A DNA stretch of 64,000 nt from Octopus vulgaris (lineage: Eukaryota), in contig OX597838.1 in the NCBI GenBank assembly GCA_951406725.2, positions 22,444,001 through 22,508,000 of the forward strand. Reading direction: 5' to 3'. Under the pieces are notes generated by a model that was not told the origin of the DNA, searched no databases, and saw nothing but the letters and a program-made list of their open reading frames with translations. The position numbers were made by a program, and so were the translations under genes. Numbering within the stretch: position 1 is the first letter of the stretch; each line of letters starts with the position of its first letter. Shown one piece after another: positions 10,776-57,255 of this stretch.

Positions 10776-11415
10776 ATTGGTGTGTTTACGTTCCAGTAAC
10801 CTAGCAGCCGGGCAAAACACATCGATAGAAGAATTACTATGCATTAAAAAAATAAGTCCTGGGTTCAATTTTGAACCCAGGTGGTGCTCCAGCATGGCGG
10901 CAGTCAAATGACTGAAACAAGAGAGTAAATGAAAAATCAATACATTTATACATGTGTGTGTGTGTGTGTGTGTGTGTGTGTGTGTGTGTGTGTGTGTGTG
11001 TGTGTGTGTGTGTGTGTGTGTGTGTGTGCGTGTGTGCGTGCGTGTAAAATATCGTATAATTATAAACAGGGTAAATTTTAGCCATTTCTCCGCAGACTGA
11101 AAAAAAATGATGAACAACCCTGATCAGTTTTTCGAAACTTATTGGGCTCTCATCAGAGATATATATGTATACAGCACTGGAAATTCATCGGCTACGATGA
11201 TAAGCACTCCACAGAGAATGTATGTTTATGCTTGTTTATGAATCTTTTATATCTTGGAAGTTACATTGTTCTGCGTTGTCGTACATTTTCATGAGGTAGT
11301 ACAAGTTTATAGACCCATGGTTTCTAGTCATTATATAGATGTATATATATAATTTTTTTCCGTAATGACATAAAACACCAAGGCTGCGTAGATTTTATAA
11401 CATTTATAAATAGAA

Positions 11416-11465
11416 GGTCTTACAGCTGTTTCTAGGATATTTATTATATCCCTTCATCTGAGATG
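11416..11465 (-). ncRNA. Type I hammerhead, U4A mutated
   Basis: catct CaGATGA ag-ggatat-aataa-atatcc-ta GAAA cagctg TA agacc; palindromic ACAGCTGT. A partial related copy lies at about 49488-49520. Confidence 0.6.
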
Positions 11466-11582
11466 GTGTGAGCAGATGGTTAAGCAATAGTTAATTTAGA
11501 TAAGATACGAAACAGAAAGTGAGGTGGAGGAATGAAAATAGATGTGATATATATATATATATATATATATATATATTCTTTT

Positions 11583-12005
11583 AATCTTTTACTTGTTTCA
11601 GTTATTTGACTGCGGCCATGCTGGAGCACCGCCTTTAGTCGAACAAATCGATCCCAGGACTTATTCTTGTAATCCTGGTACTTATTCTATCGGTCTCCTT
11701 TTGCCGAACCGCTAAGCTATAGGGGGCGTAAACACACCTGCATTGGTTGCCAAGCGACGTTGGTGGGACAAACACAGACACACAAACATATACACACACA
11801 CACACACACACACATATATATATATATATATATATATATATATATATATATATATATATATATATATATATTTAGGACGGACTTCTTTCAGTTTCCGTCT
11901 ACCAAATCCACTCACAAGGCTTTGGTCGACCCGAGGCTATAGTAGAAGACACTTGCCCAAGGTGCCACGCAGTTGCACTGAACCCGGAACCATGTGGTTG
12001 GTAAA
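11583..12005 (-). mobile_element. SINE family C (internal TA/CA microsatellite)
   Basis: ccacatggttccgggttcagt...ggcaccttgggcaagtgtcttctactatagcc; many copies. Confidence 0.85.
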
Positions 12006-12738
12006 CGTTAATTATATATATGTGTGTGTGTGTGTGTGTGTGTGTGTGTGTGTGTGTGTGTGTGTGTGTGTGTGTATATATATATATATATATATATATA
12101 TATTATGTACATTATGAATAAATTGCGTATACAAGGACATTTAGACATGCATATGTACATACTTATGTGTGTGTGTGTGTGTGTCTGTCTGTATGTGTGT
12201 TCGTGCATGTAGGTATAATCGCGCAAATAATTAGTGTAACAAACTATCCCATTGTTATACATGTGCAACAAGATTGCAAATTGCTAATTAGCTGGTCAGT
12301 TCTAATTGATGACACCTCCAGTTACACACCTACCACTCACACACACATACACACGCGCACACGCACACACACACGTGCGCGCGCATGTACACGTACATAC
12401 ACACACAAACAATCACAAAAACGACTGCTACTCCCTGTACACACATTCCACACACACACACAGACACACACACACACGCACATATATATACACAAGCTCA
12501 CACATACACACACACATGCATTTGATGACATACAGCCAACCAGCACACCATCCGTACAGCCAGTCAGTCAATTAATGAACCAATTAACTGAACTGGCGAA
12601 ACATCCATCTCGGCAAACAGACAAAACGCCATTCGCACACACAGACACACACACACACACACACACACGTACACACACATACGTACAAATACACAGACAT
12701 ACTCATATATATATATACTTAAAAGCAGCAAAAATATA

Positions 12739-12790
12739 ACAAAAGCCGTTACTCAGAGTTTCACGTTTCCGTTCATCGGACAGTTTTGTT
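12739..12790 (-). ncRNA. Type I hammerhead ribozyme, U4C core variant
   Basis: aacaaaactgt CCGATGA acg-gaaa-cgt GAAA ctc-t-gag TA acggcttttgt: long stem I, GNRA-capped stem II. Confidence 0.75.
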
Positions 12791-12933
12791 AAAATTGAAC
12801 AGTAATAATGAAAGCATATTACTCTACCTCTGATATTTGAGTACTCTTTTTTCCACCTTGTTTCACATTTATGTGCTTACTCCGGTATATATATATATAT
12901 ATATATATATATATATATTTTTTTTATAGAAGG

Positions 12934-12984
12934 AGCTTCTACAGGACTAGAACTGTTTCATTCAAATGAAATCATCAGGAAGCT
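12934..12984 (-). ncRNA. Type I hammerhead ribozyme (left arm of palindrome)
   Basis: Exact reverse complement of 13070-13120. Confidence 0.8.
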
Positions 12985-13069
12985 TGCTGTCAAAATAAGT
13001 TCTGGTATTTATACATTTAGGCAGAATGTATGTATAAATGTATGAATACCAGAACTTATTTTGACAGTA

Positions 13070-54069: not shown

Positions 54070-54317
54070 AAGATCTGGGTTACATAGTTTCATAGCGAGC
54101 GGAACCTCAGAAATGGTAAAAATCCAAGCGAGGTGTATACCGCAAAGCTACACTTCAGGCCAAGGACATATTGATTAAAATCTTGATTTAACCAAGGCTA
54201 TCTTGGTTTTAATCAAGACATCCTTGGCCTAAAGAGTAACCAGCAATATACACCTCGCTTCGATATTTACCACTCCCGAGGTCCCGCTCGCTGTGAAGCA
54301 TATGTACCCTGGATCTT
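54070..54317. repeat. Diverged long inverted repeat (~115-bp arms)
   Basis: catagcgagcggaacctc / gaggtcccgctcgctgtg, aagcgaggtgtata / tatacacctcgctt and aggccaagga / tccttggcct pair symmetrically. Confidence 0.85.
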
Positions 54318-55179
54318 GTAGTTGTCTTGTACTCTGTTTTTTCGTTGTTAAAAAAATGGTCCGTTCCATGCTGTCTTTACGTTTTCGTTTCTCGTTGAGT
54401 TCTACGTCTATTTGTGGTGTCCTGTACACATGTATATATATTTATATATGCATGTATATATACATGTAGATGTAGGTACGTACATATATGTTTGAATGTA
54501 CGCATATATTTTATTTATTACACTATTGTATGACAGAGCGCCGTCGCGTCGATTCGATTCGATTCGTTTCGTTTCGTTTCGCTTCTTCTTCTTCTCTAAG
54601 CTGGTTTATATATATATATATATAATCCCACTGGATTGGGAGAAAGCGCTAATCCGAATGATATGATCTGAATGATATGATATATATGTAAAAAATGTAA
54701 TATATAAATAAATATCTATAAATATGAACCATCCGATCTGATTACCTCATTTTTTCTAAAATATAATACCTGTACATCATCTCCAAACCTTCCAATATAT
54801 ATATATATATATATATATATATATATATATATATATATATATATATGTAGAAAAATACAAACTGGGACAAGAACGTAAAACATTTAGAAAACGGTACAAA
54901 AAACACGGACGGGACATTCGAAGCTTTCAATCTTCAGTCAAGAACCGGATCATCCTATCAATTTCGGCTGATTAATCTTGATATATATATATATATATAT
55001 ATATATATATATATATATAGATATATATATATATATATATATATATATATATATATATATATATATATATATATATATATATATATATAATTAAATAAGG
55101 GTAGAAATTGATATTAATCAATTAAAACCAGTGGCTTAGCATATTTTTTAAAAATCCGAAGATTAAAAATTGTTTTACA

Positions 55180-55338
55180 TACAAAATTTGGAGGACTGAC
55201 CACTAAAAGTGGACAGCCTATATGCTAAACATAGACGTCAAATCGCCATTACTACGAAGAATGTGGTAATGGCGATTTGACGTCTATGTTTAGCATATAG
55301 GCTGTCCACTTTTAGTGGTCAGTCCTCTAAATTTTGTA
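55180..55338. repeat. Long inverted repeat (~76-bp arms, ~7-nt loop)
   Basis: tacaaaatttggaggactgacc... / ...ggtcagtcctctaaattttgta; sits between (TA)n tracts. Confidence 0.95.
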
Positions 55339-55724
55339 CATATATATATATATATATATATATATATATATATATATATATATATATATATATATATAGT
55401 AGAAATATGTTACAAAAAGAAAATATAAAATACACGTGGAAATGTAAGGGTAAAATATGAAATATCAACGAAAATGCACATTGCAAATAAAAAAAAGGCT
55501 ATTTATGACAGGTAACAACAAATAAATACATTTAGATTGACTGAGGTAGTAATAAGAGTCATAAAAGACATTATTATGAGATGATTATGAGATGATAATA
55601 AAGTAAGAGAACAAAACGGACCATGGTTTACGCAAAGCTATTCATCGTTTGAAAAACACCGGCTAAAAGCGGTGTGTATATATATATATGTATATATACA
55701 CGCACACAAACTTATATACATATA

Positions 55725-55931
55725 CGAGGTGATGCTGAAAAGTCCCTGGGTGTCGGAAAAGGCCTGGCTGGAAGCCCAACACTCAGAGTTATTTTACAGG
55801 ACTTAGAAAAAGCAGAACGACCACTGCAATAAGTGTGTGAACCTGAGAGGCGAATATGTTGAATAAAATCATAATTAACTGATCCTCCTGTATTTTCTTT
55901 TACCGAAAGCCAGGAACATTACAGCACCTCT
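55725..55931. mobile_element. Mariner-type MITE, uninterrupted copy
   Basis: TA-cgaggtgatgctgaaaagtccctgg ... ccaggaacattacagcacctc; body is the reverse complement of 43193-43769 minus the SINE. Confidence 0.65.
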
Positions 55932-56400
55932 TCACCTATATACTGTATGTGTGTATGTGTGAGAGATAAACAAAGAGAGAGACAGAGAGAGAAAGACGAA
56001 GAGAGTGAGAGAAAGAAAGATTATGCGATTAACATTGTTCTCACATTGGACGTATGCCGTGAAAATGGTGTTACACGCTACTTCCTCATTTGGCATTGGC
56101 ACGTGATCAAGTTTAATTTGCATACTTCGCACCCGCTTGACGAGTGTTTTACAGACTGATGGAATCTCTCTTTTCTCACGTGTAACCGAAATCACCAGAC
56201 CATATCATATTTTGTTATAGTTATTTATGTCAAATCGCAAAGGTCTCCAAGGCCTTTCCAACCGATGCCCTTGTTTTTTTTCGGGTTTTTTTCGCCGACA
56301 AACAGACACATACACACAACACAGACACATACACATACACACACGTGACTGAGTCAAATGGCTGAAACAAGTAAAAGAACACGAAAGAAATATATATATA

Positions 56401-56792
56401 TCTATATATATATATATATAAAGCTGATGTCTGTGTGTGTGTGTGTGGCAGGTTTGGTAGCCTTCAACTAACGCTATCTCTTCCGAGACCCTACGGCGCA
56501 AGTTGACCAAAATTGAGAGTATGATAGAAGAAGGCTTGCTCTTCATTCCATAGAAGACAAAATTCAAATCGGACCATGTTAATACCAAAAATTATTTACA
56601 TCAAAAAGGTGCTTTTTTTCTATGAAAATCCCTATTTTTTACGATTTTTTGACTGCTGTCTCGCCATTTTTCGGTGTATTTTAACTAGGAAAATGTTCAC
56701 TTAAAGAGAACAACAAGCTACATAATGCAAAATTTTTACTTTTCAAAAATTCCAATTCTAAAGGGTCGAGCAACGCCGGGCGATATTGCTAG
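56401..56792 (+). mobile_element. Non-autonomous Helitron
   Basis: Begins A|TCTATATATA..., ends with GC-rich imperfect hairpin gtcgagcaacgccgggc about 8 nt before CTAG|T; A/T insertion site with no TSD. Confidence 0.7.
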
Positions 56793-57209
56793 TGTATATA
56801 TTATATATATATATATATATATATATATATATATATATATATATAATATGTGTGAGTGAGTGTGTGCGCGCGCGCGCGCGTGTAAGTCTCGAAATCCGGA
56901 AAAACCATCTTTATAAGTCAATGACCCGGAAAGGACCTTTAATCGTTGTTTTCAAATTACTCGGCTAAATCGACCGATAAAATAAACATCAGGCTGAACA
57001 CACACAACACACACACACACACACACACACACACACACACACACACACACATACACAATTCACATGAATAATCCAAGTCTACAGGTTTAATTGTAGCAGA
57101 TTCCTGTTGATATAATCTATTATCTCTAATCCAACGCATATCACCGATACAGTTCTTTCCCAAAATTATCTACAATGGACGGATATGCCTCCTCACCTTG
57201 TCCGTTGTT

Positions 57210-57255
57210 ATCACAACGTTTCGGCTAGTGTACTCTCCAACCTTCATCAGGTGTC
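57210..57255 (-). ncRNA. Minimal type I hammerhead (family shared with 15206-15251)
   Basis: gacac CTGATGA a-ggttgg-agagtaca-ctagcc GAAA cg TT gtgat; AACGTT palindrome in place of stem III. Confidence 0.7.

What the first reader, a model, noticed from the sequence alone, without database searches (positions are those of the whole stretch)
11117..57255. Unusual density and diversity of hammerhead ribozymes beside (TA)n microsatellites
About 10 readable hammerheads (11416, 12739, 12934, 13070, 15206, 22531, 31543, 31833, 50050, 57210) and several decayed ones (6084, 11117, 21159, 46421, 49488) occur in 64 kb. They fall into at least six unrelated sequence families that share only the core and fold. 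Most have a palindromic stem III (AACGTT, ACAGCTGT, ACATATGT), the known signature of dimer-activated Penelope-associated hammerheads, and most sit in short islands next to (TA)n. Inference: many short PLE-derived ribozyme elements that target TA repeats, potentially very numerous genome-wide.
Basis: partly seen in the sequence, partly recalled or inferred. Interest (0 to 1): 0.8.

Follow-up and report, generated by a model that had tools for sequence, protein, structure and literature searches.

The report
Penelope retrotransposon with tRNA-type promoter
The many hammerhead-ribozyme motifs here are real and are likely the leftover ends of about ten families of Penelope-type jumping genes, a known phenomenon; one protein-coding family stands out because it carries a tRNA-like head in its terminal repeat and no RNA polymerase III stop signal in its gene, so it may be copied by a polymerase that normally makes only short non-coding RNAs.

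Summary
Partly confirmed. Five of the 15 listed sites have intact cores and stems, eight are decayed or variant family members, and two (11117, 21159) are unsupported. Hits exceed shuffles. An even 800-kb genome sample holds 14 intact and 66 total motifs, roughly 50,000 and 230,000 genome-wide, so the window is only 2-3 times richer than average. These match the published minimal hammerheads of Penelope-like elements (PLEs). (TA)n targeting holds for most families (50 of 63 versus 15% background) but not family A (2 of 40). Family A (15144-15552, 57210) has a tRNA-like head, (AAT)n and a hammerhead; earlier scan notes on other DNA called it a PLE-dependent SINE. New here: the head is part of an autonomous Poseidon-type PLE. 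It follows the ORF end in 24 of 25 loci, solo and ORF-linked copies match, 43 of 44 arms start at the head, and the majority ORF has no TTTT in 761 codons. The short copies are likely solo terminal repeats from a Pol III-type start. Pol III transcription of the whole ORF is plausible but unproven (about 35%).

The parts
15480..15552 (-). Family A tRNA-like head with A-box and B-box-like motifs (best sampled match: host tRNA-Arg TCT)
15301..15479 (-). Family A (AAT)n(AAC)n spacer
15144..15300 (-). Family A body: in-frame ATG, minimal hammerhead (15206-15252, GAAA changed to AAAA) and start of the PLE ORF; short 3' end without the tail
57171..57277 (-). Older subfamily A2 body with intact hammerhead (57210-57256); no head detected in this copy
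75..387 (.).
12934..12984 (-). Family C hammerhead, intact, inverted partner of 13070
13070..13120 (+). Family C hammerhead, intact, 3-bp stem III with 8-nt loop; this arm carries the long 3' end before (TA)n
31833..31884 (+). Family D hammerhead, intact core; downstream sequence also lies beside GIY-YIG PLE loci
50050..50134 (+). Family E hammerhead with long stem II and CATATG palindrome, intact
49949..50034 (-). Family E inverted partner, two core changes
22433..22620 (-). Family B PLE-type 3' end with hammerhead at 22531-22565; fixed 3' end abutting (TA)n, variable 5' end
31543..31580 (+). Decayed B-like hammerhead (B2)
46421..46456 (-). Decayed family B3 hammerhead; the family has U at core position 6
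11416..11466 (-). Family F hammerhead, core changed in this copy (family mostly CCGAUGA)
12739..12786 (-). Family G hammerhead with CCGANGA core variant
6084..6124 (+). Decayed family I hammerhead resembling the U3-A8 variant; its flank also lies beside a GIY-YIG PLE fragment elsewhere
49488..49520 (-). 3' half of an F-like hammerhead cut by (TA)n (judged by eye)

Best explanation
[quoted passage not shown] PLE reverse transcription starts at internal sites about 100 nt past the hammerhead (shown in vitro for the Anolis PLE, PMC11167929). Almost every insertion, however short, therefore carries a hammerhead, and motif density tracks PLE insertion density. Most families end in (TA)n; family A, which lacks the CxxC linker, does not. 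In family A, copying from the 5' copy of the initiation site back to the RNA's 5' end would give head-(AAT)n-hammerhead-tail cDNAs of about 300-400 nt, which explains why 5' ends pile up at the head start. Fold-back at a small hairpin there would give the head-to-head pairs. The hammerhead overlaps the ORF start, so cleavage would cut the message rather than free it, and it is probably not needed for insertion. Shown: anatomy, linkage, counts, insertion signature. Inferred: promoter activity, polymerase identity, the copying route, any catalysis.
For: An intact-ORF Neptune-type PLE (781 aa, RT + GIY-YIG, CxxC linker) carries a U3-A8 hammerhead in both repeats and ends in (TA)n. (TA)4 lies downstream of 50 of 63 non-A motifs versus 15% background. 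Family A: 6,143 exact 22-mer hits, control 0. In 40 loci picked only by that 22-mer, the head is in cis in 28 and an inverted partner is present in 28; of 26 inverted body pairs, 23 have the 30-35-nt tail on one arm only and none on both, the PLE signature of PMC8557442. The head follows the ORF end in 24 of 25 loci that reach it. The tail runs in frame into the ORF N-terminus (L307; majority open for 813 codons). Solo and ORF-linked majorities differ only at one tied position. 43 of 44 head arms start within -15..+51 of the head start. ORF 22-mer 400 hits versus 6,143. The protein is 37% identical to an Anolis PLE ORF and 57% to P0001, whose N-terminus shows the same hammerhead-encoded peptide. 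No TTTT in 761 codons (nulls 2.6-5.0, P0 0.003-0.044) versus 52 in 14.0 kb of nine other PLE pieces. A host-tRNA profile hits 2 of 37 post-ORF regions: family A (E 3e-4) and L358 (E 0.09), and L358 has 1 TTTT in 2.36 kb.
Against: The Rfam tRNA model and ARAGORN do not recognise the head, and the tRNA profile missed the one A2 copy tested. The A and B boxes are no better conserved than the rest of the head among copies (0.89 and 0.93 versus 0.93). No full-length copy with a head directly upstream of the ORF was seen; that link is inferred from overlapping pieces. L366, a related PLE without a head, also has 0 TTTT in 1.9 kb of ORF, so ORF-level absence can be chance, though its UTR is T-rich. 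A majority sequence removes random T-runs that single-copy controls keep. L358 has two TTTT just after its hammerhead. RNA reads from a related organism cover both directions equally, 70-76% run on into unlike sequence, and no start or end peak marks the head or cleavage site. Autonomous partners were not established for families B, C, E, F and G, and some may be retrozyme-like.
Confidence: 0.7

Rival explanations
1. Family-A short copies are a true SINE lineage: solo head-hammerhead-tail units are themselves transcribed by Pol III and copied in trans by the PLE protein, while the ORF is expressed by Pol II read-through or from an upstream host promoter.
For: Short copies outnumber ORF copies about 15:1 by exact 22-mers. 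Each short copy has its own A/B boxes and the RT-initiation region. Sm-alpha of Schistosoma is a Pol III SINE-like element with a hammerhead (PMC6765202 and PMC2770079, passages).
Against: No diagnostic difference separates solo from ORF-linked copies. The TTTT-free ORF and the lack of room for another promoter between stop codon and hammerhead fit one transcription unit.
Confidence: 0.35
2. The tRNA-like head is a passenger: an old SINE piece inserted in the PLE's 3' UTR. The 5' pile-up marks a reverse-transcriptase stop at the hairpin or tRNA fold, and the TTTT absence is chance.
For: A hairpin sits exactly at the head start. L366 shows a TTTT-free ORF without a head. The boxes are not specially conserved among copies.
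Against: Changes between A1 and A2 keep both box consensuses (by eye). The head fills nearly all of the UTR. A distant PLE (L358) repeats the order head, AAT, in-frame hammerhead with a T-run-poor ORF.
Confidence: 0.2
3. Many islands (families C, E, F, G) are non-LTR retrozymes: non-coding hammerhead units that self-cleave, circularise and are inserted by PLE enzymes.
For: No ORF was found next to them in the loci held. Family C has a non-palindromic stem III that could fold as a monomer. Retrozymes are related to PLE repeats (bioRxiv 10.64898/2026.07.22.740005, part 1 and passages).
Against: The window copies are single or inverted, not tandem (one search shows no such arrays in the rows seen). 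Two alternative 3' ends and inverted arms are plain PLE signatures. Family-wide core changes suggest relaxed catalysis.
Confidence: 0.3
4. The motifs are chance matches in low-complexity DNA.
For: The canonical descriptor finds none, and two listed sites are unsupported.
Against: Shuffles give 0-1 against 13-14 in 800 kb. 15,057 pattern hits versus 186 for the control. Pattern-only hits pair stem II in 46% versus 25% with shuffled partners.
Confidence: 0.02

Closest known systems
Minimal hammerheads (min-HHR) of metazoan PLEs, Cervera and de la Pena 2014 (PMC4209133, parts 1-2 of 4 read)
   Same: Type I fold, extra base between positions 9 and 10.1, palindromic stem III, U3-A8 variant, many unrelated families per genome, mostly single motifs from truncated PLEs.
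   Different: Numbers: about 2,000-9,000 per genome there versus 15,057 for one pattern class and an estimated 50,000 intact here (axolotl retrozymes reach 120,000, PMC7229834 passage). Octopus is not mentioned in the parts read.
Poseidon PLE of Anolis carolinensis (PAc), Frangieh et al. 2024 (PMC11167929, parts 1-2 of 4 read)
   Same: RT then GIY-YIG ORF of about 830 aa, hammerhead overlapping the ORF start, optional 30-40-nt tail inside the ORF's 5' part. The family-A protein is 37% identical to an Anolis ORF of that size (taken to be PAc by inference).
   Different: No tRNA-like head or Pol III promoter is described for PAc in the parts read. PLE promoters described so far include spliced, Pol II-type 5' UTRs (PMC8557442, passages).
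Sm-alpha / Sj-alpha SINE-like elements of Schistosoma (PMC6765202, PMC2770079, passages)
   Same: tRNA-related Pol III promoter joined to a hammerhead, at high copy number.
   Different: Described as tandem, with the promoter at the 3' end of the cleaved unit and no autonomous partner sharing the head. Family A has the head 5' of the hammerhead, inserts as inverted pairs, and the head belongs to a coding PLE.
TRIMp3 elements Cassandra, Helenus, Ajax (PMC10886601, passages)
   Same: Small-RNA-derived Pol III promoter inside a terminal repeat.
   Different: Those are non-coding LTR elements, and the paper argues their autonomous partners must use Pol II. Here the coding element itself carries the head.
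RTE-1_DAn and relatives (one sentence in Kojima 2018, PMC5786205)
   Same: Autonomous retrotransposon containing a tRNA-like sequence.
   Different: A LINE, not a PLE; no transcription data in the passage read.
Neptune/Naiad (TA)n targeting (Craig et al. 2021, PMC8557442, passages)
   Same: PLEs with a CX2-5CxxC linker are reported to prefer (TA)n. The Neptune-type element here has the linker and ends in (TA)n.
   Different: Family A lacks the linker and the preference, a within-genome contrast that fits their hypothesis.

Membership tests
PLE minimal type I hammerhead | CUGANGA (or UUGANAA) core, GAAA, UH cleavage site, stems I and II | tested here: met
   5 intact window sites; 14 in 800 kb versus 0-1 in shuffles
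PLE minimal type I hammerhead | Extra base between 9 and 10.1 and palindromic stem III | tested here: met
   Families A, B and E by sequence; family C lacks the palindrome
PLE minimal type I hammerhead | Covariation in stems | tested here: inconclusive
   Across families stem II pairs in 46% versus 25% with shuffled partners among 52 pattern-only hits; within family A stems are nearly invariant
PLE minimal type I hammerhead | Self-cleavage as a dimer | not testable with these tools
   Cofolding favours dimers by 6-11 kcal/mol, which is no activity test
EN+ PLE, Penelope/Poseidon clade (family A partner) | Single ORF with RT followed by C-terminal GIY-YIG endonuclease | tested here: met
   Motif order in an 813-codon frame; RVT_1 hit; homologs are full-length PLE-type proteins
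EN+ PLE, Penelope/Poseidon clade (family A partner) | No CxxC linker, in contrast to Neptune | tested here: met
   no tree was built
EN+ PLE, Penelope/Poseidon clade (family A partner) | Inverted truncated partner and 30-40-nt tail at one end | tested here: met
   28 of 40 inverted; 23 of 26 pairs with the tail on one arm
tRNA-derived SINE (SINE2) | tRNA-derived head with A and B boxes | tested here: inconclusive
   Box motifs present, z 8.4 to host tRNA-Arg, profile E 3e-4; Rfam and ARAGORN negative
tRNA-derived SINE (SINE2) | 3' tail shared with a LINE partner | tested here: not met
   The 3' part is the repeat and ORF start of a PLE
tRNA-derived SINE (SINE2) | Head absent from the autonomous partner; independent non-autonomous lineage | tested here: not met
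   Head follows the ORF in 24 of 25 loci; no diagnostic differences
tRNA-derived SINE (SINE2) | Transcribed by RNA polymerase III | not testable with these tools
   RNA-seq shows read-through only
Non-LTR retrozyme | Head-to-tail tandem units each with a hammerhead | tested here: not met
   Window copies are single or inverted; not surveyed genome-wide
Non-LTR retrozyme | Circular RNA intermediates | not tested
   No suitable data

The most novel reading that the evidence does not exclude
Family A is an autonomous, protein-coding Penelope-like retrotransposon transcribed end to end by RNA polymerase III from a captured tRNA-Arg-like internal promoter. Its ORF has been purged of TTTT terminators, and the same RNA yields thousands of SINE-like solo repeats through internal RT initiation. 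A distant PLE (L358) may show the same design, and Sm-alpha-type elements may have arisen this way.
Probability: 0.35. Interest if true: 0.85.

Novelty: new variant of a known kind. Interest (0 to 1): 0.58.

Why it matters
The ribozyme density itself extends a known pattern, though to one of the larger counts. The family-A anatomy matters more. It offers a direct route from a coding retrotransposon to a SINE-like element without a separate fusion event. If Pol III makes the full RNA, it is a natural case of a long, uncapped Pol III transcript being translated. The 5' pile-up also marks a testable transcription start, and the family-A versus Neptune contrast tests the idea that the CxxC linker directs (TA)n targeting.

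Tried and rejected
Rfam scan of the window: the 150 rows shown of 454 were nearly all microsatellite matches to miRNA models, with no hammerhead among them. Rfam Hammerhead_1 finds only 6 of 73 scored candidates in the genome, so it is unsuited to these variants. The canonical descriptor gave 0 hits. No PLE ORF remnant was found in the window by tblastn; a GIY-YIG-like reading of 5500-5800 by eye is not supported. Sites 11117 and 21159 were rejected. My first reading, a SINE head fused to a PLE tail, was revised once the head was found in ORF-linked copies. Hammerhead-driven translation initiation (PMC13725137, passages) was rejected for family A, because the in-frame ATG lies 70 nt upstream of the cut site. 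The tRNA upstream of L360 is a separate element. Sequencing runs: no RNA holder listed; the RNA lay gave no start or end peak; the Neptune lay had 27-41 reads per run and did not settle library strandedness. A larger A2 sample was not obtained; the majority of five A2 pieces has its single TTTT at the flanking end and is 89% like A1, so it is weak independent support. The search on a recalled element name returned only unrelated papers. Lunse et al. (PMC5785218) was not held.
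Full report
Setting. The window is G000:C25:22444001-22508000 in a 2.8-Gb assembly of 227 contigs. It is extremely rich in microsatellites. I take it to be an octopus from size and repeat content; no tool names it, and earlier scan notes say the same.

Observation. A canonical hammerhead descriptor finds nothing. These motifs carry an extra base or mismatch at the top of stem II, which Cervera and de la Pena describe for PLE minimal hammerheads (PMC4209133, parts 1-2 read). 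With that allowed, five of the 15 listed sites have intact cores and stems: 12934, 13070, 31833, 50050 and 57210. Stricter filters keep 3 (0 in 60 shuffles) or 4 (0 in 100). Eight sites are variant or decayed family members (6084, 11416, 12739, 15206, 22531, 31543, 46421, and by eye 49488). Two are unsupported: 11117 and 21159. The window's motifs fall into 10 of 19 sequence clusters.

How unusual is it. Eighty evenly spaced 10-kb stretches give 13-14 intact hits against 0-1 per shuffle and 66 family members including decayed ones. That extrapolates to about 50,000 and 230,000 genome-wide; these are rough figures from an incomplete library. One exact pattern class alone has 15,057 matches against 186 for the control. 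The window's 13 motifs in 64 kb are about 2.5 times the average and are inflated by self-ascertainment; 90 kb elsewhere on C25 hold 8. Published counts include about 9,000 min-HHR in Xenopus (PMC4209133), about 38,500 candidates in S. mansoni (PMC2770079, passages) and up to 120,000 retrozymes in axolotl (PMC7229834, passages). The count here is large but of a known kind.

PLE origin and TA targeting. The genome holds many GIY-YIG PLE copies, including intact 781-aa frames. L107 is a Neptune-type element with RT and GIY-YIG, a CxxC linker, a U3-A8 hammerhead in both repeats and a (TA)n end. Family B has a fixed 3' end at TATA and variable 5' ends. Families C, E and G show inverted pairs, and C and G two alternative 3' ends. 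(TA)4 lies 30-220 nt downstream of 50 of 63 non-A motifs against 15% background, but of only 2 of 40 family-A motifs. Craig et al. link the CxxC linker to microsatellite targeting (PMC8557442, passages), and family A's partner lacks the linker. I did not find autonomous partners for B, C, E, F or G in the loci held.

Family A. The copy at 15144-15552 reads head, (AAT)n(AAC)n, body with hammerhead. A 22-mer of it has 6,143 exact hits. I took 40 loci from the chromosome C1 list, chosen only by that 22-mer. The head is in cis in 28 and an inverted partner is present in 28. Of 26 inverted body pairs, 23 carry the 30-35-nt tail on exactly one arm, 3 on neither and none on both. This is the PLE insertion signature (PMC8557442; PMC11167929, parts 1-2 read). 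Earlier scan notes reached the same point and called it a PLE-dependent SINE.

The autonomous partner. Several loci have RT and endonuclease sequence ending 20-30 nt before the head. Of 30 loci found with an ORF query, 25 reach the ORF end and 24 of those have the head directly after it. In L307 the body and tail run in frame into the ORF N-terminus. The family majority is open for 813 codons, with RT and GIY-YIG motifs in order. An in-frame ATG lies 34 nt before the hammerhead core and 70 nt before the cut site. The protein is 57% identical to P0001, whose N-terminus shows the same hammerhead-encoded peptide, and 37% to an 836-aa Anolis ORF. Solo and ORF-linked majorities are the same except for one tied position. 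An ORF 22-mer has 400 hits. Of 44 head-bearing arms, 43 begin within -15 to +51 of the head start and one extends into the ORF. The head is therefore part of the PLE's terminal repeat, and the short copies stop sharply at it.

Is the head a Pol III promoter. It has A-box and B-box-like motifs and is closest to host tRNA-Arg(TCT) among 27 distinct tRNA genes of a few types (z 8.4). A profile of those tRNAs hits 2 of 37 post-ORF regions: family A (E 3e-4) and L358 (E 0.09). Rfam and ARAGORN do not recognise it, the profile misses the A2 copy tested, and the boxes are not more conserved than their neighbours. I predicted that a Pol III unit would lack TTTT. The majority ORF has none in 761 codons at depth 3 or more, against null means of 2.6, 2.9 and 5.0 (P0 0.044, 0.032, 0.003). 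Nine other PLE pieces in the genome have 52 in 13,982 nt. Among 46 related ORFs of 1.2 kb or more from metagenome contigs, L358 ranks second in depletion (1 against 5.1) and shows head, AAT and in-frame hammerhead. The first-ranked, L366, has no head, and L358 has two TTTT after its hammerhead, so the signal is suggestive only. RNA reads from a related organism lie equally in both directions, mostly run on into other sequence, and show no start or cleavage peak.

Mechanism. Frangieh et al. showed that PLE reverse transcription starts at two internal sites about 111-118 nt into the ORF, which gives the optional tail, and that hammerhead cleavage is protein-assisted and not needed for insertion in vitro. 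From this I infer that nearly every insertion carries a hammerhead, which accounts for the density and for families with altered cores. Fold-back at the hairpin at the head start would give the inverted pairs. Whether solo copies also spread on their own, and whether Pol III reads the ORF, remain open.

Known versus new. The min-HHR content, PLE link and TA preference are published. A Pol III SINE with a hammerhead is known from Schistosoma (PMC6765202, PMC2770079, passages). Pol III promoters in terminal repeats are known for non-coding TRIMs (PMC10886601, passages), and a tRNA-like sequence in an autonomous LINE is mentioned in one sentence of PMC5786205. I found no description of a coding PLE with a tRNA-type head in searches. 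The main text of the 2026 O. vulgaris repeat annotation has no mention of ribozymes (PMC13282606, passages), and PMC13343379 (passages) has no mention of tRNA or Pol III. PMC4758252 and PMC8969392 were read as passages. Repbase, Dfam, subscription papers, Lunse et al. and all supplements were not seen, and the family may be catalogued there as a SINE or a Penelope. Earlier scan notes report the same head-plus-no-TTTT pattern in shark and RTE-type LINEs; I did not test those.

Verdict. The finding as written is real but mostly a known kind. Family A raises it to a new variant: a Poseidon-type PLE with a tRNA-like head whose solo repeats look like a SINE. Interest 0.58; a wholly Pol III-transcribed coding PLE has probability about 0.35 and would deserve 0.85.

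Noticed in passing
window 39107-40576 (-): A 489-codon open frame that reads like a single-exon rhodopsin-class GPCR (label by eye).
   Followed up: no
window 6533-7878 (-): Two overlapping open frames of a LINE-type RT 3' end, ending in an (AAT)n-type repeat (clade not tested).
   Followed up: no
window 6224-6305 (+): Rfam U4 snRNA match at 46.8 bits (gathering 46), shorter than the model and followed by (ATT)n; perhaps a U4-derived retrocopy.
   Followed up: no
G000 loci of families B3, F, G: Family-wide core variants: U at position 6 in 13 of 13 B3 copies matched by pattern, and CCGANGA in most G and F copies. These are either relaxed catalysis or functional variants.
   Followed up: partly
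L107-L110; A young Neptune-type PLE with many intact 781-aa frames, an upstream 330-480-aa frame, a long UTR with repeated CCAAT/CRE-like boxes (by eye), and a U3-A8 hammerhead.
   Followed up: partly
L358:2750-3200: Tandem PLE from a metagenome contig with a weak tRNA-like head, AAT run, in-frame hammerhead and a histone-like stem-loop match (E 0.23) downstream.
   Followed up: partly
G000:C1, one search list: Family A is much denser in the first 5 Mb of C1 than further in, so hammerhead density is uneven along chromosomes.
   Followed up: no
The family-A repeat is held by runs under five organism codes (20 rows, 10 studies), so it spans several related species.
   Followed up: no
window 12934-13120, 49949-50134, 75-387: Head-to-head inverted insertions would form double-stranded RNA in read-through transcripts; no A-to-G excess was seen in the family-level lay.
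   Followed up: no
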